A DNA stretch of 64,000 bases from Dudresnaya verticillata (taxonomy: Eukaryota), in NCBI GenBank assembly GCA_977862235.1, contig OZ374561.1, forward strand, positions 1,426,001 to 1,490,000, given 5' to 3'. Positions within the stretch are counted from its first letter, which is position 1. Every line of letters begins with the position of its first letter. Of the stretch, positions 35,562-64,000 are shown piece by piece. The position numbers and the translations under genes are program-made. The notes beneath the pieces are model-generated. The model did no database searches and was not told the origin of the DNA. It was given only the letters and a program-made list of their open reading frames with translations.

Positions 35562-36073
35562 CAGTCATCTCTCGATAAGAGGAACCAGTCCGTGGACCCA
35601 AGTTGGTTCCTCTAATAAGGGGGTTTCACTTAGGAAAAGGTAGAAAACATTTTAATATCAACCTGAAGAGAGTAAACAACCCTCATACCGCACAGTACTT
35701 AAAAAATCTACTGGAAGTAGTTCTCTATCCTAGTCTGCCTGGCAGATGTGCATGACTCCGCCTTGACAGCCCGCAGAGTCTGCGCAATACAACGTCTAAA
35801 GGGCGGCGTGTCCTCCCCATATCTCTCCGCAATTCGCTTTGCCAGCAGTAGTATCCGTAACTGCTCATCCCTCGACGGAAAATCAGCAAGGATATCTTCA
35901 TGGTCCTCTGGTTCTTCTGCCACATTCCTGCTTTCTAAAATAGATTCCAATAAAGCTCCTTCGGTGAATTCTTGAACGACTTCGTCTTCCCCAACTGGAT
36001 TCAGTAAATCAGGGATTCTTATATTCGAACGTGCAGGAGGTAAATTCCTCAGTACCCCTTGCAACTCGTCCCT
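35562..36073 (-). mobile_element. 3' end of a pogo/Tigger-like (Tc1/mariner superfamily) DNA transposon
   Basis: TA|CAGTCATCTCTCGATAAG terminus, subterminal inverted repeat AGAGGAACCA..TGGTTCCTCT; ORF remnant (36073-35708) with acidic stretch ending QTRIENYFQ*, the C-terminal PIP-box typical of pogo transposases. Confidence 0.75.
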
Positions 36074-38157
36074 CCTTAGGCGACGACTCTTTGTCAACCG
36101 CCACAGGCGCAAGAGTTAGAATCAATATCCGCCTTAGACGCTACACAAGGAAGCTCGCTCGCCTTTGGAGGTGGAGCATCCTCAACCGCCTTGGGCGAAG
36201 TAGGGGACCCCATTAACCGCCAAAGGCGTTGAACGATCAACATCCCTCAAGGACGAAGAGGCTACTGGAGCCTGCAGAACTGCCGTAGGCGCTGTCACCG
36301 CACTCGCCTTTGGCGGACTTTTGTTAACAACGTCAGTAGACGCAATGGCGGACGAACCCACACCACCCGCCTTAGGCGAAAAAGGCTTTTTCGCCACTCC
36401 GTCATTAGACGCCGCACCTTCGTCTTTAGACGGCACAGTCGCGACGACGCCCGACGCCGGCATCGCAGCAGCTCTGGGCTGCAGAGCAGCCAGCAGCGAG
36501 TGCCCGAGGGGCGTCGTCGATGATCCGCCCGACCCGTCAGTGGGGACACCGGTGGCTCGCAAGAATGCGAGCACCGTGCGGCGCTGCTCCTCAGTCCATA
36601 CGGGCATTGCAGAAGAGCCATGCGCGCCGTCAGCGACATTAGACAAGCCGCCTGGAGGCGTAACTGCAGCCGCAGAGTTCTCTACTGGCGCAGCCATAAT
36701 GGCATCACCATCATCTTCATTGATGGGTGCCGAGAGATCCAACGGCGCAACCGACGGCAAGCCAACAGGCACAACAACCGCCGGTCCTACCGCCCCTGGC
36801 GAAGTCGTCGCAGGGGCTGTTGCCCCCGCAGTAAGCTTAACCGCCAGTGGCGAAATGACATTCGTCCCGGACGGGTTAACCGGTCCGCTGTTAGCGTGGA
36901 ACGCATCCTCCGCCACCAAGGCGCTCAAGTGCGGCGGGAAATCACCCGCGAAGTTGCAATTCTTGCGCAACCCGCGTGGGTGGTTCGCTGGCGTGAAGCG
37001 GTCCGTACGACGATGGCTCTCAGCGATGTTCTCCGTCGTAAGACGTTCGTAAGACATTTGGTCGACGGGTTGTACCACGCCCAACCGCCAACGGCGGAAT
37101 GGCTTCTACTCATCGCGTAACGCGGACGGTTTGCCTTACGGCGACTGTTCCTCGGCGGCACTACAGTTGGATCGTCCCAGTTGACGCTATCCGCCACATG
37201 GCGTAGATCCCAAAACCCTTGGCAATTCTTGGCACCACCCAGCACTTCGGTCAAGTCGAGCCCACCGAGGAGGCTGACCACCCGTGGCGGTATGTAATAG
37301 AGGCGGAAGGTGTCATACACCTCCCACATCCATGCGTAGGTCACATTAATGACCCACTCGGTGAAGAATACGATCCAACTTCGGGAGTACGGATCCGTCC
37401 GCAACTCGGAGCCGATATACGTGACACACGGAGGCACTTCAGCCGCAAAGCCCTCGCAGAATTCAAAGTCCCGCCACAACGGCGGGACACGAATGAACCA
37501 GTGCGGCAACTTTTCACGCTCAATGCGATCCACCTGCGTATCTTGATACGGCACGAAAACGCCTTTGCGGCGGCGCGTTTTGCACTCCCAACGGACGCAG
37601 CGCTCCCAATAGAAGGTGCCCGTCCTATGGAGGTATCGGAAATCCGCTTTCAAGCGTACCCCAAGGAGATTAGCCTCCTGAAGCACCCGCGGCTCAGCCG
37701 AAACAGCCACATGGCTCAGTGACAACGCCCCAAGACGGTCCCCATACCCAACCTCATCATTGGTGCGGCACTGCCCTGCGTCTAATGCAAAGATGGCGGG
37801 CGTCAATACCGACCCCGGGTAGCGGGTAAACCGCCGATACACGTCAACGACGAAACGCGCATGTGCATCTGCACGCGTCTGGCCGGCGGCAATACGCAGC
37901 CAGCCCCTCGGAATATCGCACCGATGGCGCCATTCGTTCGTCCACACGACGGCCAGGGGCAACTCCCCTGGCAAAAATCCGCTCACAGCGTAATGGGTGA
38001 TGAGATCCTCATGTCGCAGGGCCTCCTGGTCGAACCAGGGGGCCCGCGAGAATAAGCGCGCATCGTTGCGGGGAGTCCTCCCGACAAAGTCGAATGGTGA
38101 CGGATACACCGGCGCCGCCGAAGGCGTAGCCACTTGCAGGCCGTTGAATGGCGCCAT
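36074..38157 (-). pseudogene. Disrupted copy of the antisense accessory ORF (ORF-X) in A'
   Basis: Near-identical protein to 39818-42124; frameshifted by an 11-bp tandem duplication (37036-37057) and a deletion near 36200; truncated at 36074. Confidence 0.88.
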
Positions 38158-38445
38158 TACTTCTGAGACGCTCAACAATCACACGCCGCTGGCGGAGTTC
38201 GTACGATACTTCAACAACGGTCTTGACTCCGACATTGAGTCAATTACGCCAAAGGTGGAAACAAACAAACACACGTCAACGACGTTGGACCAAACGACGC
38301 CAAGGGCGGAACTCAAAGACACGCCCTAGGCGGTGGGTACACGAACGCGTGCACAGAAACGACGTAAAAGACGGGGTTTTATGCACGTCACTGGCGAAGT
38401 TAGTCAACTGTACGTCTTCGACGGGAACCGTTTTTACGCCAAAGG
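36074..38445 (+). mobile_element. Relic fragment A' of an A-family Gypsy element (antisense-ORF region and leader only)
   Basis: Reverse complement aligns with ~39527-41915 of element A; no gag, pol or LTR of its own remains here. Confidence 0.9.
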
Positions 38446-39356
38446 TGTAGTGCAAACGTCGATGACGGGCACCGCCGAGCAGTTCGGGGCTCGGTGGGTA
38501 GCGACGCCTGCGGCGATGAGTGGCCTCGCCGTGGGCGTCTGGTGGTAGAGCGGTTAACTCGCCTTGGGCGGACTGTAAACGCCCTTGGCGGAAAAGAAGA
38601 ACAAAAGGAAACAGAAAGGGAACACGTCGAGGATGGGTAGAGAGGTGGAAGCACGGAGGTAGACGCTTAGCCGTAGGCAGCGGTAAGGTACGCGCGTGCT
38701 GAACGGGGAAGTCTGGACCAAGGCCGGCTTGCTGGGGTTTACTGTGACGTCTCAGACGGATCAACTAAGTACAGGATTACCTAGCGCGGCGACGCGTGCG
38801 TAGGCGCCGCGCGGGAACTTGGGACACGTGTTGTCCCGAGGCGCGTCTGACAGATCCGTACGTCATGCAGCCGCGCTCCTGACGGATCACGCGTAGCGTC
38901 CCCGTTCGAGTCCTTACACCTACACGTGGACTATTTCCTTACAGCCGCATGCGCCTCAGGGCGCGTGCGATCTTGATTCACGCCAATCCCGATCCAGTCC
39001 GGATTCGGGCCAGCCATGCGAGTGTGCCAAACTTACAGGCGCGGGCCTTACACTTCGTAATCCCGATGTCGGATCCCGATGTGGGATCCCGATTGGATCC
39101 GGATTCGGGCCACGCTTACAGCGAACGTTCCTGCCACTGCGCCACGCGCGCACGCGTGGCGCCGTACAGTACCCCGGGTTCAGGCGTGCGGTCTGCACGC
39201 CAAGCGAGCCGTTCTGGCCCGAGTGGCCAGCGGCATGCGTCGGTGACGTGTTTGCGCCGCGGGCGGGTTGAGCGCGCCGTTGGCGGTCGTCCGTCGGTAG
39301 ACGCTTCATATCAAACCGCTTGAAAGCGAAAATGGGGGAACCCCCCCGGCACTACA
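38446..39356 (-). repeat. Inferred 3' LTR of element A (911 bp)
   Basis: Perfect 8-bp terminal inverted repeat TGTAGTGC...GCACTACA; preceded on the minus strand by PPT GGAGGGGG (39367-39360); left edge coincides with loss of A/A' homology; partner LTR not in window. Confidence 0.78.
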
Positions 39357-39817
39357 CGACCCCCTCCGAAAACGCGAACACCTCAACCTGCTTCAACCTG
39401 CCAGCTTCCCCGCGCCTGCGTCTCTTCCAGTGCCGATCGTGCTTGTCACCCGCGTCTTCGCGCCTGCGTTTGCCCGCCCTTGGCGTTGGTTGAGCCCCGT
39501 CAAAGACGCACGCGCAGTTTCCCCCGCCCTTGGCGTAGGAACATTTCCCGTCGAAGACGTGTCGTTGACTAACTTCGCTAGTGGCGTGCGTGAAACCCCG
39601 TCGTTGACGTCGTATCGGTGCACGCGTGTGTACGCTTATCGCCTAGGGCGTTTCTTTGAGGTCCGCCTTCGGCGTCGTTCAGTCTAACGTCGTTGACGTG
39701 TGTTGTGCGTGCTTCCGCCTTTGGCGTAGTGGGCTTGACTTCGAAGTCCCAGAACCGTCATTGACGTATCGTGTGAACTCCGCCCGTGGCGTGTGATTAC
39801 TCAACGTCTTGGACGCA

Positions 39818-42124
39818 ATGGCACAGTTCAATGGCCTACGAGTGGCTGCGCCTTCGGCGGCGCCGGTGTATCCGTCACCATTCGACTTCGTCGGGAGGAC
39901 TCCCCGCAACGATGCGAGCTTATTCTCGCGGGCACCCTGGTTCGACCAGGAGGCCCTGCGACATGAGGACCTCATCACCCATTACGCTGTGAGCGGGTTT
40001 TTGCCAGGGGAGTTGCCCCTGGCCGTCGTGTGGACGAACGAATGGCGCCATCGGTGCGCCATTCCGCGGGTTTGGCTGCGTATTGCCGCCGGCCAGACGC
40101 GTGCAGATGCACATGCGCGTTTCGTCGTTGACGTGTATCGGCGGTTTACCCGCTATCCTGGGTGGGTATTGACGCCCACCGTCTTTGCATTTGACGCAGG
40201 GCAGTACCGCACTAATGGCGAGGTTGGGTATGGGGACCGTCTTGGAGCGTTGTCATTAAGCCATGTGGCTGTTTCGGCTGAGCCGCGGGTGCTTCAGGAG
40301 GCTAACCTCCTTGGGGTACGCTTGAAAGCGGATTTCCGGTACTTACATAGGACAGGCACCTTCTATTGGGAGCGCTGCGTCCGTTGGGAGTGCGAAACGC
40401 GCCGCCGCAAAGGCGTTTTTGTGCCGTATCAAGATACGCAGGTTGATCGCATTGAGCGGGAAAAGTTGCCGCACTGGTTCATTCGTGTCCCGCCGTTGTG
40501 GCGGGACTTTGAATTCTGCGAGGGCTTTGCGGCTGAAGTGCCTCCGTGTGTCACGTATATCGGCTCCGAGTTGCGTACGGATCCGTACTCCCGAAGTTGG
40601 ATCGTATTCTTCACCGAGTGGGTCATTAATGTGACCTACGCATGGATGTGGGATGTGTATGACACCTTCCGGCTCTATTATGTGCCGCCACGCGTAGTCA
40701 GCCTCCTTGGCGGGCTTGACTTGACCGAAGTGCTGGGCGGTGCCAGGAACTGCCAAGAGTTCTGGGATTTACGCCATGTGGCGGATAACGTCAACTGGGA
40801 CGACCCGGCAGCTGTGCCGCCGGGAAACCGGCGCCGTAATGCAAACCGTGCGCGTTACGCGATGAGTAGAAATCATTCCGCCTGTGGCGATTGGGTATGG
40901 TACAACCCTTGGACCAAACGTCTTACGACGGAGAATATCGCTGAGAGCCACCGTCGTACGGATCGCTTCACGCCAGCGAATCACCCACGTGGGTTGCGCA
41001 AGAATTGCGACTTTGCGGGGGATTTCCCACCCCACTTGAGCGCCTTGATGGCGGAGGAGGATGCGTTCCACGCGAACAGCGGACCGGTTAACTCGTCTGG
41101 GACGGACATCGTTACGCCTATGGCGGTTGAACTTTCTGCGGGAGCGACAGCCCCCGCGACGATTTCGCCAGCGGCGGTAGGACCGTCGGCTGTTGTGCCT
41201 GTTGGCTTGCCGTCGGTTGCGCCATTGGATCTCTCGGCGCCCGTCAACGACGGTGATGGTGATGCCATCATGGCTGCGCCCGTGGCGAGTCCTGCGTCTG
41301 CAGTTCCGCCTCAAGGCGGAGTGTCTAACGTTGCCGACGGTGCGCATCGCCCTTCTGCAGTGCCCGCATGGACTGAGGAGCAGCGCCGCACGGTGCTCGC
41401 ATTCTTGCGAGCCACCGGTGTCGTCACTGACGGGTCGGGCGGGTCCTCCACGACGCCCCTCGGGCACTCGCTGTTGGCTGCTCTGCACCCCAGCGTTGCT
41501 GCGGTGCCGGCGTCGACCGTCGTTGCGAATGTGCCGTCTAACGACGAAGGTACAGCGTCTAATGACGAAGTGGCGCAGAAGCCGTTGTCGCCTAAGGCGG
41601 GTGGTGCGGGTTCGTCCGCCATTGCGTCTGCTGACGTTGTTAGCAAAAGTCCGCCAAAGGCGAGTGCGGTGGCAGCGCCTACGGCGGCTCGGCAGGCTCC
41701 GGTAGCCTCTTCGTCGGTGACGGATGTTGATCGTTCAACGCCTTTGGCGGTTAATGCGGTCCCGTCACCGGAGGTGCCGGGGCCGTCGACTTCGCCCAAG
41801 GCGGTTGAGGATGCTCCACCGCCAAAGGCGAGTGAGCTTCCTAGTGTAGCGCCTAAGGCGGATAACGACTCTAACGTTGCGCCTATGGCGGTTGACAAGC
41901 AGTCGTCGCCTAAGGCGGATTGTGAGACAGGTGCGTCGCCAGCGGCGGATGTCGCGACTTCGACAGCGGTGGTTGTGGCGGGTCCCTTGCGGTCCGTTCC
42001 TGCCCCTGCTGCGAGCGCACCGTCGGTGACGGAAGACGATCTCTACGAAGAGGCGTTAAGGGAATCCGCCAATGGCGTTGGGGATGATGCCCCATCTGAG
42101 CCGTCTGCGACGAAGAAGCCGTAA
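39818..42124 (+). CDS. Antisense accessory ORF-X of element A (768 aa; Trp-rich domain of unknown family plus Ala/Pro/Ser tail)
   Basis: Uninterrupted ORF opposite to pol, starting ~460 bp from the 3' LTR; homologous to 57555-59237 over ~390 aa. Confidence 0.88.
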   Translation: MAQFNGLRVAAPSAAPVYPSPFDFVGRTPRNDASLFSRAPWFDQEALRHEDLITHYAVSGFLPGELPLAVVWTNEWRHRCAIPRVWLRIAAGQTRADAHARFVVDVYRRFTRYPGWVLTPTVFAFDAGQYRTNGEVGYGDRLGALSLSHVAVSAEPRVLQEANLLGVRLKADFRYLHRTGTFYWERCVRWECETRRRKGVFVPYQDTQVDRIEREKLPHWFIRVPPLWRDFEFCEGFAAEVPPCVTYIGSELRTDPYSRSWIVFFTEWVINVTYAWMWDVYDTFRLYYVPPRVVSLLGGLDLTEVLGGARNCQEFWDLRHVADNVNWDDPAAVPPGNRRRNANRARYAMSRNHSACGDWVWYNPWTKRLTTENIAESHRRTDRFTPANHPRGLRKNCDFAGDFPPHLSALMAEEDAFHANSGPVNSSGTDIVTPMAVELSAGATAPATISPAAVGPSAVVPVGLPSVAPLDLSAPVNDGDGDAIMAAPVASPASAVPPQGGVSNVADGAHRPSAVPAWTEEQRRTVLAFLRATGVVTDGSGGSSTTPLGHSLLAALHPSVAAVPASTVVANVPSNDEGTASNDEVAQKPLSPKAGGAGSSAIASADVVSKSPPKASAVAAPTAARQAPVASSSVTDVDRSTPLAVNAVPSPEVPGPSTSPKAVEDAPPPKASELPSVAPKADNDSNVAPMAVDKQSSPKADCETGASPAADVATSTAVVVAGPLRSVPAPAASAPSVTEDDLYEEALRESANGVGDDAPSEPSATKKP

Positions 42125-43335
42125 CGTTGTTGGATCGTTAAGCACGGTTAGCAAACGCGAGAGCGCGTGTGGTGTCGCTTTGCCTGCCCCGTGGTGGGGC
42201 GGCAAGCGAGGGATTCATACGTCATAGACGGTTAGTGTCGCGTCTCACGACGTAGGTCGTAGTGGAAGGTCATGTGGGCACGGGGGTTACCCTCGTTTGT
42301 GAAGCCCGAATAAACTTGACCGTTGTTAACACGTAGTTGCTTGTGTGTTCGCTTGATGTAGAGCGCTGCGATAGCGAATAGTATGTAGCCGACGGGTCGC
42401 GTTCGTATAGACGTTGTTGTTTTCTGTCCGCTGTAGTAGCGTTTGCGTAGAAGCTTGGGGCGGTGCCGCCTTGGTGGCGTTTTTCTCCCTTCTTGATGCC
42501 GCTACAGTAGCGTAACCCCTTTCTGGGAGGGTCCATTTTCTCATGCCGACTTAGTCGTTTTGTTGCTCAAATTGTTTTTCCGCTTGTTGAGCGAATGTGT
42601 AGTTGGGGGAGCCGTTTGTCGGTAGGCTTTTCGTCTTTGACGTAGGGCATGTTGGGTTAGCGTCGGGGACGGTTAGCTTGGCGATGCGCCGCGCGTGGGG
42701 CGCGTTTCTTGCGACTCCTGGGCGTGGCTGCCGCGCCCAGCGGCGGAGTCATTTTTGCGACTAGCGCGTCGTGCACGAAACGTAGCCCAACTCCATCTTC
42801 GACGACTGTTTCTCCTCTCGTGTTTGCGGCGACCCGTTTTTCGGCTTGAGACACGTCGTTGATGTTCGCGGGCGTCACCCTCGAGGTGGTTGCGTGTGCC
42901 GCCCGTAAGGGTGGCGGGTTTCGGACTTGGTCGCGTGGGTGGCGCGCCTGGGCGAGGACGTCGGAGACGGTCGATCGCGTCCGGGCTTGGTTGCCTCGTG
43001 GGCATTCGTAGTGCTGGGCACACACACACTTGTCAGGTTCTCGTTTGTTGGGCGCCGCCGCCTGGCTGGTGCCCGCGTTATTATTTTCGCATTAAACTTT
43101 TTCCTGTCGTTGCTGCCCGATTTCGTGTGGTGCGTGCGCCCTCCACGCCTTCTGATTACTGTCAGCCGTTCTGTCCTTACGGACCCCCTCCGAAGAGGGT
43201 TGCCTATTCGCGTGTCGCCAACCCAATCGTCCTTGATCCGGTTGATTACAGCCCCCGTCGTCCGTAACGAGTGCACGTCCGTCTCAATCCGTATGTGGCG
43301 GGTGTTTTCGCTTCCAGCGTCCACCCTGACTAGGG

Positions 43336-46300
43336 TTACCCGCGTTGCGCGTCGTCGATGTTTGGCGGCAGGCGCGTGTGCTTCTGACGGTGATACCGCA
43401 CAACGTGCGATCGCGGTAGACTGGACACTGGTTCCCAAGTATTCGCTGAAGCGGGGTATCCAAACCACTTGACGCGGTAGAGGATCTCGCCGTCTTCTGC
43501 GTGTGCGTGCGACTCAACCCGTTCGATAACGTACTCCTCCGCGCTTGGAGCGGTCGACGTAGGCTCCTGCCGTTCTAGCGCCTTGAGCGGCTCACTTCGT
43601 TGCGTGATGGGCGTCTGCACCGGTTCGGCAAACCGTACTCGACGAGTCGATCACCTGAGGCGCTGGGTCGGTGCCCCGAGGGCTTGCGTAGCGGGTTGTG
43701 GTTCGTCGCTTTTGCGTACTGGTTCCTCGCTTCTAGCGGCATCTTTCGCGTTAGCGCGGTCGTCCTCATCGGCAGTCGATGCGCTCGAAGCGGGACCTAC
43801 CTTGGTAGCCGGCGAAGCCGAGGTTGCGTGTCCCATTCGCGTACGGATGCCGGGACCCTCCTCCTCGTCGGAGACGGATTGCGAGACACCGTCGTCGGGG
43901 TTAGCAGCAAAGGGCGAGAGCTCTGCTAACCCGCGGCTTCGTGGTCGTTGCATTCATTCGCTCCTGCGAGTCGTTCGTGCGGCGCGGCGTCCCTGTGCCT
44001 CCTGCCGGGTCCGCCTGCGGCGTGTCTGGGGTTCCTGCTCCTTCGTCGGTTGACGTGGGGGCCGGTGGTCCCGATACGTCAGGTGATCCCGGTGGTTGCA
44101 CGGTTGCGGGGGCGTTGTGCCCTGGTGGGGTTGGCGCCCATACCACGCGGTCTCGGGATAAGCATTCGCGTTCGCCACGTCCCTTGTCGACGGTGACTGT
44201 CCCGTCGTCGACGTGTGTTACTCGATACGGTCCATCCGCTACAGGTGCGAGCTTGTGCTTGCGCTCTGAGCGATCGGTGCTCCCGCCGCGGGCGAAGTAT
44301 TCTTTCCGCACGAATGCGAAGTCTCCCACAGCGATGTTCTCCTTCGATTTCCTCAGACGAGTATCGAAGTTCCGTTTGTAACGCGCCTGCGTTTTCGCGA
44401 GTGGCGCGTTAGCGGTTCCAATCAATGCGGACAGCCAGGTTCGCCATTTGGTGTAGTACTGTCCGGCAGTGGGCACGCTTTCAAGCGACGGCTCCGCTTC
44501 CAGCGACAATGGCCGCGGGGGCTTAGATAGCACCAACTCGAATGGAGCGAGGTGGGTAGACGAGTGCAGTTGCGTATTGTATGCGAACGTCAGAGCATCG
44601 GTGAACAAATCCCAGTCCCTGGCGTAGTGACGCAGGGAGGCGAGGATGGTTCGATTGAATCGTTCCACTTGGCCGTTACACTGCGGGTGGTATGTAGTGG
44701 TGAAGAGATTCTCCACCCCTAAAATGCGGCAGACGTCCTGGAACAACTTGGCTACAAACTGCGACCCGTTGTCGGACAGCAGATTCTTGGGTGGGCCATA
44801 CACAAACACCCAGTGTCGAACAAACGCCTTAGCGATTTCCAATGCCGTAATCTTACGTAAGGGAACCGTCCGGACCAGCTTTGAGAAGCGGTCCACGATG
44901 ACGAGTAGGAACTTATTCCCCCGCTTAGTGCGTATGAGCTCCCCGAGTATATCGATGGACACAAACTCGAGAGGCTCGGTTGCTGGGAACAGTTTCATCT
45001 CCTTCACGTTCTTTCGCATCAGTACCCGGTTCTTCGCGCAAGTAACGCAATTGCGGACGGTCGCGTAACAGTCCACCGACATAGACGGCCAATAATACTC
45101 GCGTCGAAGCGTATGGTACAGCTTCCGCCCTCCGGGATGTCCTGCTAATTTAGCATGATGCCGGAGGTGGAGCAATCGAACGCGTAACGCGGATGGTACA
45201 ACGACTTGGGGTCGGGCCTCGACGGTCCGGACCAATAGTCCCTGTTCGTCCGTTTCAAACGGTAGGTTGTCTCCGTCGTCTAGACGTTTCCGAATCTCAG
45301 AACAGTACTGGTCGCTGCCCTGAGCATGCACCAACTCTTCATGCGTCAATTGACGGAGGAGCACTTCATCCGCCGGTGGCGCGCTGGTAACCAACATCTG
45401 GTCAAATTCCTCGAAGTCTCGTTCGGAGAAATCGACTTCGCCCTTGACGTTTGACGTATCGCTTTCTGCGTGAGCGTGTCCTCTGACGAGAGGTCCTCGT
45501 CTTTGACGCAGCTTCCGTGGTAACACGGGATATCATCGTCGATTGGTTCGACCGTTTCGCCGTTCGTCTGTAGACGTGAGAGGGCATCTGCCTGAGTATT
45601 CAGGTACCCCTTTTTATACTTCACGACGAAGTCGAACTCAGAGAGGCGAAGGCCCCATCTCATCAACCGTCCCGAGGGGTCGCTGATTTCCATGAGCCAC
45701 CTCAACGACGAATGGTCCGTATAGACTACGAAGGACTCCATCTGAAGGTACGGTCTCAACGTCGTGATCGACCAGACTACTGCCAAGCATTCCTTTTCGG
45801 ATACCGAGTAGTTACGCTCCGGAGCGATTAACGAGCGTGACCAGAAGCCAAGCGGCTTCCGTTCGCCGTCAGGCTGCGTTTGAAAGAGTGCGCAGCCAAC
45901 TTGGTACTCGCTCGCGTCACAATCGACGGAGTACGGTAGTCCTTGTTGTGGCAGCGCCAGGATGGGCGGGTGAGTCACCGCTTCGACAAGCGTACTGAAT
46001 GCCCGAGCTTGCTCCTCGGTGCACGGTTGTAACCGGAAGTCTTGCTCTTTCCTTAACAATTTGTTGAGGGGAGCGGCGACATGCGCGTATCGCGATACAA
46101 ACCGTCTATAGACGTTGCATAATCCGAGAAAGCTCCGTAATTCCTTCTGGTCCCGCGGATGTTTGGCTTCGCGTAACGCGGCTGTGACCGTACGGTCTAC
46201 TTCCAATCGTCCCGGACATATCACATGGCCGAGATAGTTGACGGTCGGGGTGAAGAAGTCACACTTGGTTAACTTCAATGTCACCCCGGCCCGATGCAAG

Positions 46301-47514
46301 GTCGAAAGGATCTCGTCAACATGACGGAAGTGACTGTCGATATCATTCGAGAAGATGATCACATCGTCAAGGTAGACGAGGCATGAGCGCCACTTGTAAC
46401 CAGCAAGCAGGATATCGAGGGTCCGTTGGAACGTGGCCGGTGCGTTAGTAAGGCCGAAGGGCATACGTTTGTAGCGGAACAATCCGGCATGGCACGTGAA
46501 CGCTGTCTTGTCGCGATCTCGCGGGTTAATGGGCACCTGCCAGTAACCACTATTGCAGTCTAGGGTGGTGAAGATGTTCGCTTCCCCTAGACTGTCAATA
46601 CATTCATCGATTCGCGGGAGAGGGTACGTATCTCGTACCGTTACTGCGTTCAAGCGACGGTAGTCAACGCAGAAGCGGAGTGTACCGTCCTTCTTGGGAG
46701 CGAAGACGACCGGCGACGCCCATGGCGATTGGGCGGGTTCGATAACCCCCTGACGCAACATGCGATCCACCTCCGCTTGAGCGAGTTGCCTTTGCTTTGG
46801 GCCAGCGCGATAAGGCGGGGATGAAATCGGCCTGGAGCCGGGGAGCAAGTCAATATAGTGCTCCGTGGTTGCGATTTCTCCTAATGAACCGTCCCACATC
46901 GACGAGTACCTGCGCAGCATCTCCTTCAGCCGTCCTTGATGTTCGGCTGAGAGATGACTCAGGTCCAACTCGTCCACTGACGGAGGTTTCGCTATGGTTG
47001 CTTCGATCGACTTAGCGAATGTATCCGGCTGTGCCGTTACTCCATCATTCGTTTGAAAACGGAAATCTTGATTCGCCTCTTCCTCCGCTGCCTGCTCCTT
47101 GGTGATACCTAGGACACCGGCCAGACTTATGTGACTGGGGAACACTGCTGTGGGATGTGGCAACGCGGTAGCAACGACTTGTCCCTTGACGAGCGCTTGC
47201 GGACGCGGGGAGAAGTTTGCGACGAGAATCCTGAACACTCTCTGCGGCTCTACTTGAGCGACTCCGTTAGTAACGGCCAAAGCTTGCCGATCATATAACG
47301 TTCCAAACGGTTGGATGGTAATGACCCCTGCTCGCTCGGTCGTTACCGAGATCCACTTTTGCGCCTGCGGCGGGATGATCGTTCGTTCCGCAACGCGTAT
47401 CTTGGGCGACGTTCGTCCTCCGGCCGTGCCGTACTCCTGTTCCGTTGGCAACGGGGGGTACGACGAGGGACGGCGCAGCGGGCGGCGCGTTATAGGGACA
47501 CGGGTCCCGTCGTC
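43336..47514 (-). pseudogene. pol: pol of element A (RT-RNaseH-integrase-chromodomain), frameshifted
   Basis: [51 protein letters not shown], chromodomain YVIERVESH..YRVKWFGYP..TWEP; frame breaks near 45.5 kb and 43.6-44 kb. Confidence 0.93.
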
Positions 47515-48290
47515 TGTGGCGCAAATCGCCTTCGCGCCCTGTTGAAGAATTCTTCTTACTGCCGTCGATCGCGGCTCACGCGACTGCCGGACGACGGACG
47601 CACAGCGACCGTTTCGTGCGGATCAACCGCTGTGCGGGTGATTGAGCTCAGAGCCAATTTCTGTAATGAGCTCTGGCACCACGCGCACGCACCAGCAATG
47701 CTAATGGGGAAATGCCTCTGTAAGGCGCCCGGCCTGACAGTACGCGGCGCCCTCTGCCAGCAAGGATGGCCCCGCAACGCGACAGCGCGTACACGTGCAC
47801 ACGTGCGCCTCCTTGGCGCACACCTTTCAGCCGCACTACCGCTAGGCTGACAGTTGATATTTGTAGATAATTATAGAATTGCGCGCGCCACGTATTGCCA
47901 AGTGGCGCGCCCCCTTCCCTTACTTTAATCCGCCACCAAGGCGCACCCGCCTCCTACATAGTATAATAGGGCCCTGAGGTGCGCCCTCATACAGTAAACG
48001 GCCAAGCTTGGGCCCAGCGAGACGTACCCTCCTACCCTATCGACTCCCTCCTTAGGTTGGACTCCAGTACATCCGCTACCCATCTTCATCGTACAGAATC
48101 CTGTTTTTCTCTTGTTTTTTCCCTGTTTTCTCTTCCCTTCTAGGGTAACCCCCTTTCTCGGTCTTGTAGTGTTTTACAGTCGCACTACGGGGCTATTCCC
48201 CTGCTCTACCGCTACTACCTCACCTGCTACCGCCAGGCCCCCGAACCGCCTGAGGTGCACCCTCAATTCTACCGAGTGGATTGCAGCACG
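47515..48290 (+). repeat. 5' LTR of element B
   Basis: Direct repeat of 59372-60147 (about 4 internal substitutions by eye); ends TTGCAGCACG instead of TTGCACCACA. Confidence 0.95.
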
Positions 48291-50611
48291 TGCGCAGGCA
48301 AGTCCTGCAGTCCAAGCCGCTTTTTCGGCAATACCCAATGAGGCGGTTCCTCGCATTCCCCCTCGGTTGAGGTCTTACCTCCTGCCCCAGCCGGGACTCT
48401 CCCGACTGGGCAAGAGCAAGGCAGGCAGCCGGCACCTCCGCCGCCGCTGCCCAATCCACCGCCGCCGATTTCGGCATCAGTTCCGCCTCCGGTGGAGCCA
48501 CCCACAATCCAAGAGGAAGCACCTCGTGTTGCCTTCATACACGGGACAACTATTCCCCGAAGTGCAATTCAAGAGGTATGCCTCATGGAAGACCAGGCTT
48601 TTGCCGCCCGGCTGTCGCGTCAGATAACGGACAGCTTGGCTTTGGTCAACCAACGTATCGACGAGGTTAGTACTCGACTTGACCTCGTCCTGGAGAATCC
48701 TCCACAGAACCACGCGGACCTCGCCGTCGAGGTCCGCACACTTCGAGGAGACGTTAACCGCCTCCTCGAAACCTACGGGGCTACTCCCGCAAGGGGGCCC
48801 CGTCCGAATCCCCCAAGCCTACCCGCGCAACTTCCGCTCGATGACCGCATTACGCGGATTGCCGACCGCTTGGAGCGCCTAGAGGGCATATGCCTCAACG
48901 AGCGCGAACCGCCCCTGCCTCCCGATGACGGAGGCGCGAACAGAAGACAAGTCGAATTCGACAGTCACGCTCGACATGGGGACACTTACCCCAAGGACAG
49001 TTGCCCTTACGGGTGTACGGACCACCCTCATGATGACGACTACCGTCAAGACCGCCGTGAATCACGAAGTCAAAACCGTCATCATACCTCAACGCGGAAT
49101 ACCCGCAATCGCCGTCACCACCGCCACGGCTACGGAACTTCCTCCCGGTCGGCGTCCGACGACTCGGACTCAGACCGCTCCGACGGAGAAGTTTATGGAA
49201 ATCCCCGTCGCGATGATGGTATACGACGCAAGGGGCCGCGGTATAAGCATCTCAAGGAGCTGAAACCAACGAACCCCTTGCACGACCAATTGCTGTCTTA
49301 CAGGCACTACCGCCTACAGAATACGGAACAATCCCGTACAAGCCGACAGACCGGCAAGATCAAGGACCAGATCAAAAGACTGGAGTTAACCATGAAGGAT
49401 TGTTCCTTTAATGGGGAAGACCCGTGTTGATTTTGGAGTTTCTCTCCCGGTTAGTCGACGAAGCCGACACTCTCGACATGTCGGAAGCCCAGGCGTTCAT
49501 CGCCTTGCCCTACTTCTTACGCGGAAATGCCGCTACTCAATTTCGCTCCGTCAAGACCGCTCCGTCCCGTTCTAATGGAGGAGTGTCCTCATGGCCCGAA
49601 GCTGTGCAGTATCTTCTGCGGACGTACGCGACACCGAGCGCGCTACGTGAGGCAATCCTCGAGCTCCGCGCTCTCCGGCAGAACGCGGGCGAATCGGGAA
49701 CACTCTTCGGGATGCGAGTCTCGAAAGCGTGTAACCGATGTGGCAATGTCCACAAGGAATGGGAGAAGATGACGTACTTCATCGACGGTCTGGACCCGAG
49801 CATCCGCTCGCTGGTCGCCTGGTATCGAGAGGAAACTCCTCGTCACGAATTGTCGTTTGAACGACTAGTGCATTATGCACAAGATGAAGGTGAAGCTCAC
49901 CGTGGAAGAAATCGCGCACCACGCGCTGGACAAGACCAACTCGCGGGCCGCACCGCAACTACAGGAGGACGTCGTCCAGGACGCGGAAATTCCGCTATGA
50001 TGGCTGAGTCTTCTATCGAATTCCGAGACGGAAGTGGAGTTCCACGTAGGCAGGTGGGCGAGCAGGATGCCGAGGTGCACCTTTTGTACCCGGACGCGGC
50101 ACTGCTGTCGTCCGACCCACCTACCGACTCACAAGTAGAATCCTACGGAAGCGAAGATAATGCGCTTCTCATGCGCTCTCGTCAAGTCCCGGCTCCGCGC
50201 ATCCCATACCAGGAGCATTCACCTGGTATGAAACGCACACGGCCGGGCTGTAAAGATAGGTGAAATCCCCAAAGGAACTTCGGTCCCAAGCAGACAATCA
50301 TCTGTCACATTTTCTACAAGCCTGGGCATGTTTCACCCGAATGCTTCTTAGCATGGAAGGACTACCTGAGGATTATCCTCAATTATAAATCGCTCAGTGC
50401 GGTCGACCGCGAGCGTGTGCCGGCTACGTCCTACATGAAGGCGAAAGCACAGGCACAATACGATGAGGGAAGTCCTCAAGGTCGACCCCAGGTACCGCCC
50501 CCTGTGGTACCCCACACTAGCGAACGCCACCCTCAGGCGTTCGCGCCCGTTGGACAGCCCCCTTCGAATGGGCGCGACGGACGAGCGGACACCCGGAATT
50601 CGGAAAACTAG
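48291..50611 (+). pseudogene. gag: gag of element B (disrupted)
   Basis: Pro-rich N-part, FNGEDP/VLILEFL (frameshift ~49422), SWPEAVQYLLRTY, FIDGLDPSIR, in-frame TGA at 50261, degenerate knuckle CHIFYKPGHVSPEC, stop TAG 50609-50611. Confidence 0.85.
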
Positions 50612-53600
50612 TCGGGGTCATACCCCCTTCGACTGGGGAACGTCAAACGGAAACATTTCCGGTCGACATTCAAGGGTCACGACCCGACAAAAAGGAGAAT
50701 ATAACTCCAAAGACTATACTGCAGAACCCTGCAAGGACTAGACGGACCTCGGCCTCGCCACCAACGGCAGGATTACGTAGGCCCTGGCACCAGTACCGTC
50801 CACCGCATGCACAAGGCGAATTGCTGATAGCGGCAAAGCGCAACTTTAAAGTATACGCAGATACGGGTTTACACCCAAGCTACCTATCGCGTAAACTTAC
50901 TGTGCTAGATACCGGTGCCGGTCCCAACTTTATCAGAAAATCTGAACTACCACCTCAAGCGGAGTCCCGCATTCGAGACGGGGACATCCCCACCATCAGC
51001 GACGCCAACAACAGGCCGTTGCAAACATCCGGCGTCATCGCCTTGGTCGTTCGACTGGGCGACCGTATTGTCAAACTTGACTTTATTGTCTGCGAAAGAC
51101 TCGCCGCCCCGGTCATCCTCGGATGTAACTTCTGCGACCGTTTCGTAGAAGCCATCTATCCGAGGACCCGTGAAGTCGAACTCGACAATGGAACTCGCGT
51201 GCCGATTACGCGGCGACCATTGAAGCGACCGCCCACGGCTCCACCACTACCTGCTGATCAGGAGTATGAGCCACTACGAGGCCATACCTCAACGAAAATA
51301 CGCGTAGCGGGACGAACCGTAATCCCAGTCCAAGCGCAAAAGTGGGTTTCAGTAACCACAGAACGCGCGGGGCTGATTTGCCTCCAGCCCTACGACAAGC
51401 CGTATCACCGGCAGGGAATCATCGCAACGAATGGAATAGCCCATGTTGAACCAAAGCGGCCGTTCCGCATTCTAGTCGCGAACTTCACTTCGCACGACCA
51501 AGTTCTTCCGAAGAACCAGGTCGTCGCGACCGCCCTCCCGCACCCCACCGCCGTGGTGCCCAGTCCCATCCGGCTGGCGGACGTGCTTGGGCTGGCTGAC
51601 TTAGCGGACGATACCGCAACAAAAACCCAACGACTGGGAAGACTGTTGAATACGACAAACAAAGGTGACGCTCACGCGAAGACCCTTGAAGCTGAAAACG
51701 AACCTCCACCTTCGGTGGACGACGTGGATTTATCCCACTTGGCCGAGAATCACGCCCGGCGTGTGCGGGATTTACTTGGTAGGTTTTCTACAATGTGGGA
51801 TGGTTCACTAGGTGAAATCACCACTACGGAACATTACATCGATATGATTCCGGGTACGAGGCCGTTCTCGTGCCCACCCTATCGGACGGGTCCGAAGCAA
51901 CGCCAAGTGGAACAAGCGGAAGTTGACCGCATGCTACGAGCTGGTGTTATAGAACCGGCACAATCTCCCTGGGCATCTCCAGTTGTTCTAGTGCCGAAAA
52001 GGACGGTACCTTACGATTCTGTGTCGATTACCGACGTTTAAATGCCGCGACCGTTCGGGATACATACCCGTTACCGCGCATCGATGAATGTATCATTCAC
52101 TCGGCGAAGCAAATGTCTTCACTACGCTCGATTGCAACTCGGGGTATTGGCAAATCCCCATCAACGGTCGCGATCGTGACAAAACCACGTTTACATGCCA
52201 TGCGGGAACCTTCCGCTACAAGAGAATGCCATTTGGCCTTACCAATGCACCCGCTACCTTCCAGCGGACCCTGAATATCCTGCTCTCAGGTTTCAAGTGG
52301 CAGACATGCCTCGTTTACTTGGACGATGTTATCATCTACTCCAAGGACGTGGAAACCCACTTTAAACACGTCGAGCAGATCCTGACTGCATTGGACCAAG
52401 CCGGGGTTACCCTCAAACTGAAGAAATGTGACTTATTCACAAACACCGTCAACTACCTGGGCCATATCATCTGCCCCGGCGAACTGCGGGTTGACCCAAC
52501 GGTTACTGCGGCACTCCGCAAAGCAAAACACCCACGCACACAAACGGAATTGAGGTCTTTCCTCGGATTGTGTGACGTATATAGGAGGTTTGTCCCCCAA
52601 TTACTCTCACGTGGCAGGACCACTGAACCGGCTCCTCAAAAAGGATCACCCGGACAATATTGAGTCGCTCGACGACAAACAAGAGGCCGCGTTCCAGACG
52701 CTGATCAAAGCTGTCACGGAACCACCGGTACTATCTCTGCCAAAACCTGGCTTGCCCTATTCTGTCGATACCGACGCGTCGAACTACCAGGTCGGTTGCG
52801 CCTTATTCCAAACGCACACCGACGGTACGCGGAAACCCCTCGGGTACTGGTCCCGTTCTCTACAAGCCGCCGAAAAGAATTACTCGGTTTCCGAGAAGGA
52901 ATGTTTGTTACTGGTGTGGGCTGTTACCACTTTACGGCCCTACCTCCAAATGGAAAAGTTTACCATACACACCGATCACTCCTCTCTTCGTTGGCTAATG
53001 GAGATTAATGATCCCTCCGGGCGCCTTATGCGCTGGCGCCTACGTATGTCGGAATTCGACTTTGACGTCCGCTACAAAAAGGGACGCATCAACACCCAAG
53101 CGGACGCCCTTTCGCGTCTTCAAACGCTTGGCGAAACGCAAGTCGACATCGACGATGAAATTCCGTGTTTCCACGTTGAGGCGGATGCTCCTTCAACCTG
53201 CGCCGTTTGCGATAATGAGGAATTCCTCGAATTGGACGACGAAGTATCCGACCAACTCCTTCTGGCGAATCCGCCGTCAAACCAACCTGAGCTCTTGCGC
53301 CCAATCACGACGGAAGAGCTTCTTCAAACGCAACTAGCAGATGCTTTCTGCACCTTCCTGCGTTCTCGTCTTAACGGGGGGGAGGGGTTACCGTTCGCGC
53401 TGGACGAGACAGGAGTCCTCATTCGCACACGAGAGGCACTTCCTCAAATTGTAATACCATTTACTCTTCGCGCACGGGTGCTACACTTGGCACACTTCCC
53501 GAAACTATCCGGACATCCCGGTGGGCGCAAGATGTATTACTCACTCCGTAGATCATTCTACTGGCCTTCCATGGCTGTGGACTGTTACGCCACGGTAAGA

Positions 53601-55814
53601 AACTGCACAACGTGTGCACGCAATCGCGTTATGCTACGCCGTAATACCAAGCATATGAAGCTGTTTCCAGCAAAAGCACCCCTGGAGTTTGTCTCCATTG
53701 ACATCTATGGCGAACTGATTCGCACGAAACGAGGCAATCGATTCCTCTTTGTCATCACAGACCGTTTCTCCAAACTCGTTCGGACAGTTCCGATGAAGAA
53801 GATTACGGCTGCGAAAGTTGCCGAAGCGTTCATTACGCATTGGGTCTACGTCTACGGACCTCCGTTGTATCTACTATCAGATAATGGCGGACATTTTGCC
53901 GCAAAGTTGTTTCAGTCGTTATGTGGAACTTTGGGGATCAAAAACCTCTTTACTACAACCTATCACCCCCAATACAATGGGCAGGTTGAGCGGTTCAACC
54001 GCACAATGCGCGCCGCGCTACTGCACTACGTTGCGGACCATCCGCGTGAATGGGATTTATTCTCAGATGCCATCACCTACGCGTACAATACGCAAGTTCA
54101 TTCTACCACGAACCCTGCCCCCTTCCAGCTGGTACTCTCCAGACCTCCACCCGCTCTAAGCGTCGAGGCACATCCCTCACTGGAACCAGTGCCGAGTTCG
54201 GCTACATTCCACGCCAAGTGGCAATCCTGGCTCACAGGACTACTGTCAACGGCCACAAAAGGCGTTGACCAGACACAAGCGCGATACAAACGCAATTTCG
54301 ATAACAGGGTACATCCCTCACGCGACGTCATCGGAGTAGACTCCTACGTCTACGTACGTAAGGAGTACTATGGGAAGGATACCCCAAAACACAAACTGGC
54401 GCCTATCGCCGACGGCCCCTATCGCGTGAATGACGCAAATGATAAGACGGTCACCGTCGAGAAGGACGGGCCTGAATACGAGCGGATTTCCCGCGACAGA
54501 GTCGTGTTGGCGCCCACCCCACCAAGGGACGCGACCAACCAAGCCGACGCCGAAGGGACGGCAGGCCCGACAGATGCGGATTTACCGCCAACAAACGATC
54601 TCAATAACGATCATACTCAAGTACAGTGCCCTGACGGAGCTACTGTGTCTCACGGGGAAAATGCCCCAATTACTTTTCATGCTGTGGCACCAGCCACACA
54701 GCCACGAAATGATCGCGGGTTGGCGGATTTACCACCGCTGACGGTACCCGGACGCACCGCTGGCGTCCGCACGCGGACTACCGCAACTCACTCACCACCC
54801 ACCACACGCGCCGACGCCGCCGCTTCCACTCCAACTCCTGCTCCCGCAAGTTCGGAGCCGGGATCCAGGACAGAGAACGACGCCCGCGCAAATGGGCACC
54901 CCATCGCGGATCAGCCGCACGCTGTCTCAGAAGGCACCAAGGCCGTCAACGGTACAACAGAGGGAATTCCTCATGATACCTCACCAAAGGCACCAGCGAC
55001 ATCGCCCGACGACCCCCACTCGGAGGAAACTCCTCGTCAACGGCAACCCGCGCAGAATACCGGCACAACCGCCTCCCAGGAGAATACTCCACAAGAAGCA
55101 GCAACGCGAGATATACTCCGCAAAGGCTCGCCTATTCGTCGGATAACGGAAGACTTCGAGCCACACCCATCCGGGACACTACACACCCATCGCCTAACAC
55201 CCGCCGCAAAATCGGCTGACATCAATCAGGTGGATGAGCCACGGCCCCTTAGTCAGGCTGAAACCCTACCCGCTGACGGGAAGGACCCCGCTCCTGAAGG
55301 AGAGACACGCGATGTGTCGCCAGACGCGTCTAGAACGCAAGACAACCACAAGGAGAATTCTCCACGCTCACCAAGAAAGAGCGTCACGTTTGACGACACC
55401 ATTAGGGAAATCCCTACGCGGCCTCTCGTGAGCCGGAGCCTCGGATCAGAAGCGGCAGACCGCAATCAAGTCACAACCGCGACCATTGGCACACCAAGCC
55501 CCAGACGGAGTCGCCGTATAGCTACCGCCGTTCCGCGCGTGTCACAATCGGACCCTCGGCCTAATGACACCGTGTCATCACGGCACCGACACCATGCCGA
55601 CATTCCGCAGCGTGACGAGTATGTCATCGAAAAAGTGGTGAACCACAGTTATGATAATACAGAACTGCTGTTTGAAGTCAAATGGTACGGCTATCCGTCT
55701 GCGCAAAATACATGGGAGCCCATACAACATCTACCGCGGAGTCAAGTTATCTCCTATTGCAAGAGGAGACGTCTCGGCGTCCCCTCCACCATCACCAAGG
55801 CCATGGTGGGCTAA
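50602..55814 (+). pseudogene. pol: pol of element B (PR-RT-RNaseH-IN-chromodomain), -1 frame to gag, three frameshifts
   Basis: LDTGAG, YLDD, DTDAS, EKEC, GHPGG..CTTC, IN core, DGPY, chromodomain YVIEKVVNH..FEVKWYGYP..TWEP; shifts near 51997, 52095 and 52597. Confidence 0.95.
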
Positions 55815-57554
55815 CCCCCAAACGCTACCAGGTCCAAATGAAGTGGAGACACCACATTGAAGAGTCCCCGGGAGTCGATTCCACAGTGGTTGCTGCACAC
55901 ACGACGGAGGTACTGTACGCCACGGTATAACACCTGATTGGCCAGACGCTATTTTAATTAACGCCGCACGAATCAGATGCCCGTTATGCTCACCCACTCA
56001 CCTAGCGGTCTACCGCAACTGGTCGCCATCGTCGCTTCCAAAGTCGAATACGACTAAGTTAACGATTCAAGCATACACAAAACGGGATTCCGTAGCGATT
56101 TTTCCTAGCCACCAACGGCTTTGAGCTGCCGTTCCCCCATCCGAAGGGGAACGCCGTGGCGCAGGCTGTACACCAAAAAGCGGAATTCCGCATCGCAGGG
56201 CGTTCGCGTCAACGACAACCCGACGCTCACGACCCCTATGACATGAGGCGCTCCATACCGCCTTTGTGGCGAATCCAAAGGGGAACTCCTCCGCGTGGAC
56301 TGTAGCAGCGTGCAGCCGTACGCTATGGCCGTCTCCAAGCCGTCTGCGGCGGAGCCTACCAAAGCTGCCATCCTTACAACGGAATTCCGTAATCACGGGA
56401 CTGAGCAGTCGATGGCCTTTGGCACCCGCTCCCCCATGGAAAAGTGGATATCTACACCTAAATCGCACCACGATGTGGCGTTCCACGAACTTCTTTTACG
56501 CCCAATAATTGGGGAACACCCCTACAAAGGCCATAACCAACTACTGTAGCCACCTCTCCGTTGCCTACGACAGACTCTCTAACAGCAATTATGCTGAAAC
56601 GGAATTCCGTGAACACTCACCGCGGGCCACGAGCAGACTGGTGTACCCCTGACTCAAAGAGATGGGTGTACCTCCGCCTGCGTGTGCCCATGCGGCACCT
56701 ACCTCCGCAAACGTTCGAGACAAGTGGTATTCCACACAACCGAAAATCCGCGCCCAAGCCCCTCGGCGCTCCTACAGTGGGGAGGCCATTGTTCACGTGG
56801 CATTCCACTTATCTAGACGGACTGGGTCACCCTATCGCCTAACTACCCAGAGAGGCGCGTACGCAACTACGTCCGGCTAGCCGGGTCAGCATGCAACATA
56901 GGCAAACAAGCTCGTTAACAGACTTCTGTACAACCAATTAATCTGGCTAGACCACAGTGCGCGTTTGGGCTACTGCACGTGCCACAGTACAGGACCGGGC
57001 TACTGTACTCCCTTCAGGTTACGTGCCTCAGGCCACTCCATGGATTCCCATTGGGCGATGACGGTGCCAATGTACCCCCGCACCAATCACCTGCCGTGCG
57101 CCTCTACACAGTCCACCCTAGCGGAAAGCCGCAGCTGCCCCTCACCTTCTCCCCCAAGTCGTTCACGACTAAGTGGGAATTGCGAGCCATGCCCAGAACG
57201 GAAATCCGTACCTACTGCTCTAAGCCGCCAACGGCCTTGAACACCCGCACGCCCAGTGGTCGGAGCACACCTACGTGCAAGTCGCTTACGATTTGTGGAC
57301 TTCCACACTACGCGTCGTACGCCTCAATGATGGCATATTGCGACCCCCGCGTTCGCCGACATCTACGTATGCGAATCACTGCGCTGTACTACCGCTCAGG
57401 GAGCTCCCCTAAGAGCGACTCGCCGCATGATGGCAAACAAGAACTCAAACAGGCAAACTTTTAATAAGTCCTGATTATGGCGATGCCCTCCCTACTACGA
57501 CGCATGGGCTAGTCCCACAGGGTCGGTTGCCCCACGCCATATGTCGATGCTCGG

Positions 57555-59237: not shown

Positions 59238-59361
59238 CGCAACACGTCCGCTGCACACACGATGAGCGGACCCCCGCAAGCTGAGATGGCGAGGCGTCGT
59301 GCCAACTTGCGCCTGACGCAGAAATATCCCTGTGGGCTCGTGCGGGTACTCGCCGCTTAAC

Positions 59362-59371
59362 GGGGGGGAGA
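59362..59371 (+). other. Polypurine tract of element B
   Basis: GGGGGGGAGA immediately before the TG of the 3' LTR. Confidence 0.9.
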
Positions 59372-61740: not shown

Positions 61741-61951
61741 GAGCCCCCTTCGCAGCGCGGATCCCCGGCCGCGAGCTCGGATCACGGCTATATCAAGACG
61801 GGTGCCACGTCGTCTGGCACCCTCATCCCCGGCCATCATCCTCAGCACGCGCATCTTCACTGCGCCCACTTGCACCCTACGGCCGACTGCGCTCCTTACT
61901 CTTCACCTTCTTCCACCTTCTTCCGCGCCACTTCTCGGCCGTCGCGTAGCG

Positions 61952-63990: not shown

Positions 63991-64000
63991 TTGGCCGGTG

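What the first reader, a model, noticed from the sequence alone, without database searches (positions are those of the whole stretch)
41100..41950. Protein tail of ORF-X appears to be dictated by the DNA motif (dual coding)
Seen: the recurring peptides TPMA, SPAA, APVA, SPKA, PPKA, APTA, TPLA, APKA and APMA are all encoded NCG-CCN-NNG-GCG. G is fixed at three wobble positions, exactly spelling CGCC-N3-GGCG. Seven sites from 41739 to 41937 are mostly 27-30 bp apart (~3 helical turns). Inference: selection acts on the DNA motif and the disordered tail tolerates it.
Basis: partly seen in the sequence, partly recalled or inferred. Interest (0 to 1): 0.7.

Follow-up and report, generated by a model that had tools for sequence, protein, structure and literature searches.

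The report
Retrotransposon-wide, family-specific mini-hairpin code
A retrotransposon, likely from a red seaweed, carries about 130 tiny self-complementary DNA stretches from end to end, even inside its genes, in a style that a related element nested within it does not share, and these likely act as a self-tag read by one of the element's own proteins.

Summary
In detail: 13 of 15 [STAP]-P-x-A peptides in the ORF-X tail are spelled CGCC-N3-GGCG (1.8 expected, P about 3e-11). But it is one slice of something larger. ORF-X is an antisense extra gene of a Gypsy chromodomain retrotransposon. The whole element carries perfect mini-inverted repeats CG-XY-N3-Y'X'-CG (88 seen, about 7 expected; 40 more with 4-base loops), also in RT and integrase through synonymous codons. 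The arms co-vary: CGCC/CGCC 31, CGTC/CGTC 22, mixed 1. Stems stop at four pairs, neighbours keep at least about 17 bases apart, and stems differ less than loops between two copies. A related element nested inside it, with an ORF-X homolog, has a different class (G-xy-G, 4-5-base loop). Host genes have neither. A minisatellite and helical phasing are not supported. 'Dictated' overstates: homolog tails are also disordered and Pro/Ala/Ser-rich. Best guess: family-specific hairpin or cruciform tags under selection, read by an element-encoded protein, probably ORF-X (847 relatives, confident model, no fold match).

The parts
39809..42124 (+). ORF-X of element A, 771 aa from TTG (first ATG at 39818); antisense extra ORF downstream of pol
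   Evidence: no Pfam family; 34% identical over 541 columns to the E2 homolog
39860..41008 (+). Conserved N-terminal domain of ORF-X, about 385 aa, mostly helical, no fold match
   Evidence: 847 relatives at E <= 0.001; pLDDT 95.2, pTM 0.92; no match; best Z 2.5
41084..42124 (+). Disordered tail holding 21 CG-XY-N3 and 5 CG-XY-N4 mini-inverted repeats (14 of them CGCC-N3-GGCG)
   Evidence: 21 seen, null 4.5, maximum 12 of 1000 shuffles
41372..41422 (+). Short helix motif (xxFLRxxG) inside the tail, shared with most homolog tails
   Evidence: seen by eye in the printed tails; no Pfam match in 32 homologs
41739..41947 (.). The seven closely spaced CGCC-N3-GGCG sites of the finding
39240..39808 (.). 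Non-coding hairpin array upstream of ORF-X, 13 N3 and 3 N4 sites, 28 per kb
   Evidence: stems 4 of 68 different from copy B against 46 of 187 elsewhere
42125..43335 (.). Non-coding stretch between ORF-X and the chromodomain, 6 N3 and 4 N4 sites, 8 per kb
43336..47514 (-). Element A pol: RT, RNase H, integrase, chromodomain (in more than one frame); 30 N3 and 18 N4 sites
   Evidence: RT-RH 11 against 1.5; integrase 12 against 2.7
60147..60900 (-). Element A protease region on the far side of the nested element; 8 N3 and 6 N4 sites
47515..60146 (+). Nested Gypsy element E2, 775-bp LTRs 99.4% identical, TCGTC target-site duplication; carries its own class G-xy-G-N4/5-C-y'x'-C
57555..59237 (-). 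ORF-X homolog of E2, 560 aa, antisense to its pol; 17 E2-class sites, 1 A-class site
36071..38445 (-). Copy B: truncated, frameshifted, inverted second copy of the ORF-X region, 88% identical to A

Best explanation
The tail motif is part of an element-wide set of perfect 4-bp inverted repeats with 3-4-base loops, specific to this retrotransposon family, which are likely kept by selection as hairpin or cruciform self-tags and are likely read by an element-encoded protein, most likely ORF-X. Shown: element-wide excess, co-varying arms, stems ending at four pairs, spacing rules, a switch of class at the borders of the nested element, lower divergence of stems. Inferred: the arms pair; a protein coats the element at one site per 20-30 bases or more; sites gather where the protein sequence is free (tail, upstream DNA) and enter pol through synonymous codons. 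Guessed by analogy with VANC: ORF-X binds its own family's tags on the integrated DNA and keeps those copies from being silenced; tag and reader diverge together between families.
For: 88 N3 sites against 7.3 expected and 40 N4 against 7.3; order-2 resampling mean 7.4, maximum 18 of 100. Stems not starting with CG at loop 3 are at chance, 39 against about 36. CGCC/CGCC: mixed: CGTC/CGTC = 31:1:22 against 18:26:9 for independent half-sites, P = 2e-12. The pair below the stem is Watson-Crick in 7 of 88 against 24.4 permuted, P = 1e-4. G-T wobble forms are at chance on both strands (7 against 8.2; 5 against 5.4). Neighbour spacing 11-16: 0 against 8.2; 20-30: 37 against 12.4, among 114 sites. Excess over synonymous shuffles in all six A segments tested. 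The class switches at the E2 borders, and the integrase peptide RFNR is an A-class site in A and an E2-class site in E2. Stem CpGs at 4-fold sites differ in 2 of 54 against 28 of 95 other CpGs, P = 8e-5. Both families carry ORF-X, and in A density peaks just upstream of it and in its tail. ORF-X has a conserved domain plus a variable disordered part, as described for VANC (PMC5735166, passages).
Against: No binding, expression or methylation data. No compensatory double change at a homologous site among 46 sites compared between A and B: co-variation is across sites only. E2 shows no density peak at its own ORF-X (13 per kb, as in its gag and pol). A 4-bp-arm cruciform in chromatin is energetically unlikely without a protein (own knowledge), and in naked RNA most A-class stems in pol are not predicted to form (median pairing 0.02-0.04). 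The tail-only wobble test is not significant. The ORF-X model gives no known nucleic-acid-binding fold. CpG is not depleted in host or elements (o/e 1.03-1.29), which weakens an anti-methylation role. E2's second pol ORF has a mild A-class excess (6 against 2.0, P = 0.011). Classes were defined after looking at the data.
Confidence: 0.4

Rival explanations
1. The sites are dispersed RNA stem-loops in the genomic transcript (or hairpins in the single-stranded cDNA) bound by Gag or ORF-X for family-selective packaging, export or protection.
For: Co-varying arms are most simply explained by a single strand. Loop length is tolerant, 3 > 4 > 5 > 6 (88, 40, 22, 16). Sites span gag, pol, 3' region and LTR of E2. 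Footprint-like spacing. CGCC hairpins are stable as RNA, about -5 kcal/mol. Dispersed packaging signals are described in RNA viruses (PMC6281560, passages).
Against: No G-U excess on either strand, and the flank rule is used in both orientations (5' C only 26, 3' G only 34). E2's 4-base loops are two-fold symmetric, A first in 37 of 59 and T last in 28 of 59. The better folding on the sense strand is matched by controls placed at random. Described packaging signals are read mainly in loops and bulges, whereas here loops are free.
Confidence: 0.27
2. The repeats are a family-specific mutational signature: the element's RT or a repair step perfects quasi-palindromes by template switching, with no function.
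For: It explains co-variation, family specificity, element-wide spread and the lack of near-perfect excess (one-mismatch forms 44 against about 41). Repeated correction would also make stems look conserved.
Against: Stem extension is avoided rather than favoured. Spacing rules exist. The non-coding stretch 42125-43335 has the lowest density, 8 per kb, below pol.
Confidence: 0.13
3. The sites are ordinary duplex palindromes bound by several different homodimers (host factors or ORF-X variants), each with its own fixed site.
For: Two-fold symmetry, strong sequence preference among equally stable stems (CGCC 31, CGGC 5, CGGG 0), and many ORF-X relatives exist.
Against: At least seven different arms lie on the diagonal with several loop lengths; one dimer should accept mixed half-sites, as the YGGCCR motif of element E3 does (24:19:7 against 22:22:5); host DNA shows no such class.
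Confidence: 0.12
4. The tail is a recent 27-30-bp minisatellite expansion.
For: Some near flanks recur, and the third base after the stem is T in all 7 core sites; in-frame spacing.
Against: No TRF array at score 30; spacers are not more alike than the null; the class covers RT and integrase. Old short duplications may still have helped locally.
Confidence: 0.03

Closest known systems
VANC anti-silencing proteins and their motifs in Arabidopsis VANDAL transposons (PMC5735166; 12 passages seen)
   Same: Element-encoded accessory protein with conserved and variable regions; short motif dense in its own family and different in related families.
   Different: VANC motifs are fixed, non-palindromic, in one orientation, mainly non-coding, and grow by tandem repeats in a DNA transposon. 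Here the arms co-vary, sites run through pol of an LTR element, no tandem array is found, and binding is untested.
Dispersed packaging signals of RNA viruses such as MS2 (PMC6281560; passages)
   Same: Many short stem-loops along a genome, with spacing that matters.
   Different: Recognition there is described in loop and bulge; here loops are free, the outer stem bases are fixed, and both strands look equivalent.
DNA uptake sequences in bacterial coding regions (PMC2817400; abstract)
   Same: A DNA motif inflates certain short peptides, prefers certain frames and gathers in poorly conserved protein parts.
   Different: Fixed sequence, genome-wide, driven by DNA uptake; not hairpins, not specific to an element family.
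Antisense additional ORFs between pol and 3' LTR (Grande, RIRE2, Retand; PMC7264820; passages)
   Same: Position and orientation of ORF-X; function unknown there too.
   Different: Those are land-plant elements; ORF-X sits in a chromodomain element, has no Pfam match, and no hairpin code appeared in the passages seen.
DGR target hairpin/cruciform (PMC3240598; abstract) and coding palindromes of Nematomorpha mitochondria (PMC6649704; abstract)
   Same: Structure of a DNA stem matters; inverted repeats can lie inside coding sequence.
   Different: DGR: one site, loop sequence read. Nematomorpha: long repeats up to 284 bp. Here over a hundred 11-13-base sites.

Membership tests
Ty3/Gypsy chromodomain LTR retrotransposon | PR-RT-RH-INT order with a C-terminal chromodomain | tested here: met
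   Pfam RVT_1, RT_RNaseH, Integrase_H2C2, rve, Chromo in that order on the minus strand; protease below the curated cut-off (E 0.006)
Ty3/Gypsy chromodomain LTR retrotransposon | Paired LTRs with target-site duplication | tested here: inconclusive
   Met for E2; element A's LTRs and gag could not be delimited in the window
Antisense additional ORF (aORF-3R) | Conserved ORF between pol and 3' LTR, antisense to pol | tested here: met
   Both A and E2; purifying selection on the domain, 0-fold 27 of 720 against 4-fold 33 of 182
VANC/VANDAL system | Family-specific short motif at high density in the cognate element | tested here: met
VANC/VANDAL system | Fixed motif in one orientation, in non-coding tandem repeats | tested here: not met
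   co-varying palindromes, also in coding DNA, no tandem array
VANC/VANDAL system | Protein homologous to VANC, in a Mutator-like DNA transposon | tested here: not met
   The host element is an LTR retrotransposon; no Pfam match for ORF-X or 32 homologs. No direct comparison with a VANC sequence was run
VANC/VANDAL system | Protein binds the motif and removes methylation | not testable with these tools
   needs binding and methylation data
Dispersed packaging signals | Stem-loops on the packaged strand with a shared loop or bulge motif | tested here: inconclusive
   stems present; no shared loop sequence in A and no clear strand preference
Dispersed packaging signals | Capsid or nucleocapsid binding | not testable with these tools
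   needs experiment
Minisatellite | Head-to-tail units alike over their whole length | tested here: not met
SAP/HeH-like module (likeness recalled, by eye) | Profile or fold match of the tail helix motif | tested here: inconclusive
   no Pfam hit in 32 homologs, no Atlas hit; the module was not folded

The most novel reading that the evidence does not exclude
A widespread group of red-algal retrotransposons marks its whole length with a family-specific code of mini-hairpins or cruciforms, read by structure plus a few fixed bases by an element-encoded protein of new fold (ORF-X); code and reader diverge together, giving each family a private self-recognition system written through its genes.
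Probability: 0.35. Interest if true: 0.92.

Novelty: new variant of a known kind. Interest (0 to 1): 0.8.

Why it matters
How transposons tell their own copies from the host and from rival families is known in few cases, and the job of antisense extra ORFs in LTR elements is open. Here a sharp, countable signature marks each family, even in the integrase core, beside an uncharacterised protein family of 847 clusters with a confident model and no fold match. It gives direct tests: mixed-arm, extended-stem and swapped-family oligos against ORF-X or Gag. It also warns that synonymous sites in these elements are not neutral.

Tried and rejected
No genome is held for the window, so family copies were limited to A, B and E2. 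No sequencing run was listed. No related DNA locus was found in metagenome or viral contigs; 125 loci matching a triple-motif pattern gave no tblastn hit to ORF-X, RT or integrase; genome contigs was not scanned. Single-sequence protein searches found nothing; the profile found 2 and then 847 (best 150 listed). The fold from 3 sequences failed (pLDDT 32). PDB sequence searches: nothing significant (best E 0.31). Fold searches: no match, which does not show that the fold is new. Atlas: no usable hit. Rfam: none in 36000-64000. A scan of homolog proteins for peptides compatible with any of 2164 hairpin patterns recovered CGCC-N3 in ORF-X but nothing safe elsewhere. Rejected: helical phasing, minisatellite, one degenerate dimer site, general high folding (non-CG stems at chance), sense-strand folding bias. 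Rows dropped: host5 and A_RT_RH and E2_RT were in wrong frames; host5 was redone, A RT, E2_RT not redone. The 'A sense' set included copy B's upstream DNA, so its flank counts are not relied on. Paper searches listed no description of this pattern; most subscription journals are not in the library, no supplements were read, and red-algal genome papers or their supplements may bear on novelty. Earlier notes of the scan held nothing relevant.

Full report
Setting. The window is eukaryotic, with host genes in 1-35000 and retrotransposons from about 36000. Element A is a Ty3/Gypsy element on the minus strand: RT, RNase H, integrase and chromodomain at 43336-47514, protease region at 60147-60900. 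ORF-X (39809-42124, 771 aa) lies beyond the chromodomain on the opposite strand. Element E2 (47515-60146, LTRs 99.4% identical, TCGTC duplication) is nested in A and has its own antisense ORF-X homolog. Copy B (36071-38445) is a truncated, frameshifted, inverted copy of the ORF-X region, 88% identical. The only named homologs are four Gracilariopsis chorda hypothetical proteins, so a red-algal host is likely but inferred.

The observation. 14 CGCC-N3-GGCG sites lie in the tail, 13 in the phase described. 13 of 15 [STAP]-P-x-A peptides are spelled as the motif against 1.8 expected; synonymous shuffles give 3.5, maximum 8 of 300, against 14. TRF finds no array and the spacers are not more alike than the null. 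Spacings in the tail are multiples of three; upstream, in non-coding DNA, they are mostly 23-28, and there is no helical periodicity.

The motif is one member of a class. Over element A (39240-47514 and 60147-60900) there are 88 perfect repeats CG-XY-N3-Y'X'-CG against 7.3 expected and 40 with a 4-base loop against 7.3; stems that do not start with CG are at chance. An order-2 resampling gives a mean of 7.4 and a maximum of 18 in 100. The commonest arms are CGCC 31, CGTC 22, CGCT 8, CGCG 6, CGGC 5, CGTT 5, CGAC 4. Mixed CGCC/CGTC sites number 1, where independent half-sites predict 26. One-mismatch and G-T forms are at chance. The pair below the stem is Watson-Crick in 7 of 88 against 24.4 (0 of 31 for CGCC): a C before or a G after the stem is common, both together rare. 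Among 114 sites, neighbours 11-16 bases apart are absent (8.2 expected) and 20-30 apart are frequent (37 against 12.4).

It runs through the genes and is family-specific. Against synonymous shuffles: ORF-X domain 9 against 1.2, tail 21 against 4.5, chromodomain 3 against 0.6, protease 7 against 0.7, RT-RH 11 against 1.5, integrase 12 against 2.7. E2 has a different diagonal class, G-xy-G with 4-5-base loops: 10, 10, 12, 30 and 17 sites in five ORFs against 1.8, 1.3, 1.5, 3.8 and 3.1. The E2 class is not enriched in any A segment; the A class is mildly raised in one of five E2 ORFs (P = 0.011). In six host ORFs one test reached P = 0.044 (2 sites) and the rest none. The kilobase map switches class at both E2 borders. 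The integrase peptide RFNR is written CGA TTC AAT CGA in A and, with the preceding Glu, GAG CGG TTC AAC CGC in E2, each a site of its own class. This is dual coding in a conserved enzyme, stronger than the tail case.

Conservation between A and B. Of 46 sites perfect in either copy, 32 are perfect in both, 12 only in A, 2 only in B. Stems differ at 18 of 363 positions, loops at 23 of 146, other positions at 201 of 1854; upstream 4 of 68 against 46 of 187 (P = 6e-4); 4-fold CpG positions 2 of 54 against 28 of 95 (P = 8e-5). Defining sites as perfect in at least one copy biases stems slightly towards identity. For the tail's wobble Gs alone the test is inconclusive, 3 of 36 against 29 of 176. 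No compensatory double change was seen.

Is the tail dictated by the DNA? In part. It is weakly constrained and hairpins touch 59 of 140 codons in its densest part; among 41 tails of 120 residues or more, ORF-X has the highest [STAP]-P-x-A excess, 15 against 4.8. But homolog tails are also disordered and S/T/A/P-rich (median 0.41 against 0.51), share a short helix motif, and 18 of 21 tail sites use the phase that gives Pro, Ala, Ser and Thr. The constraint runs both ways, as described for uptake sequences (PMC2817400, abstract).

The protein. A profile finds 847 clusters at E <= 0.001. With 134 sequences the domain folds at pLDDT 95.2 and matches nothing in PDB or BFVD (best Z 2.5). Many Arg, Trp, Tyr and acidic residues are conserved; no function follows from that.

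Mechanism. Co-variation of arms means that the arms most likely pair (inference). Fixed stem length, avoided extension, spacing rules and a rise in the total of CG-N7-CG sites fit selection for a bound structure better than mutational correction (inference). Symmetry between strands favours DNA; energetics favour a single strand; the data do not settle this. I put 0.40 on ORF-X reading DNA tags for self-recognition and anti-silencing, as VANC does with fixed motifs (PMC5735166, passages), 0.27 on RNA or cDNA signals, 0.13 on mutational drive, 0.12 on several duplex-binding dimers. Against anti-silencing, CpG is not depleted here, although DNA methylation is reported in Gracilariales (PMC9861306, passages).

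Known and new. It works like VANC motifs or dispersed packaging signals but fails the VANC membership tests that could be run and is inconclusive for packaging signals. Antisense extra ORFs are known and unexplained in plant elements (PMC7264820, passages). Six paper searches listed no description of such a code; the library is incomplete and no supplements were read. Verdict: real, larger than reported, function untested; interest 0.8.

Noticed in passing
window 60900-64000: A third element or insertion (E3) with a 758-aa low-complexity ORF at 61550-63826 (+) is rich in YGGCCR (39 in the ORF against 10.8 in synonymous shuffles). Its half-sites combine independently (24:19:7), so it looks like a classical protein or methylase site, unlike the hairpin classes. 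No Pfam match, no likeness to ORF-X.
   Followed up: partly
window 47515-60146: Young nested Gypsy E2: 5 differences in 775 LTR bases, one at the 3' end of the 5' LTR (GCAGCAC against GCACCAC); its pol is in several frames.
   Followed up: partly
window 52554-55814: E2's RH-integrase ORF has a mild excess of A-class sites (6 against 2.0, P = 0.011): a relic or recombination, or chance.
   Followed up: no
window 38446-39526: Unexplained 1.08-kb stretch between the head-to-head upstream regions of copies A and B, with A-class hairpins on both sides and a 13-bp tandem repeat at 39060-39108; may hold an LTR, not resolved.
   Followed up: partly
window 47515-59371: E2 sites also keep apart, with a different preferred spacing (46-80 bases: 32 against 19.2), and often have AATT-like loops.
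   Followed up: partly
P0001-P0161: ORF-X homologs share a small C-terminal helical module (xxFLRxxG...L) inside otherwise unrelated disordered tails; four near-identical copies are annotated as hypothetical proteins in Gracilariopsis chorda.
   Followed up: partly
window 1-35000: Host genes include a sodium:solute symporter (3444-5531), a kinase (17668-19701) and a bromodomain protein (24195-27653).
   Followed up: no
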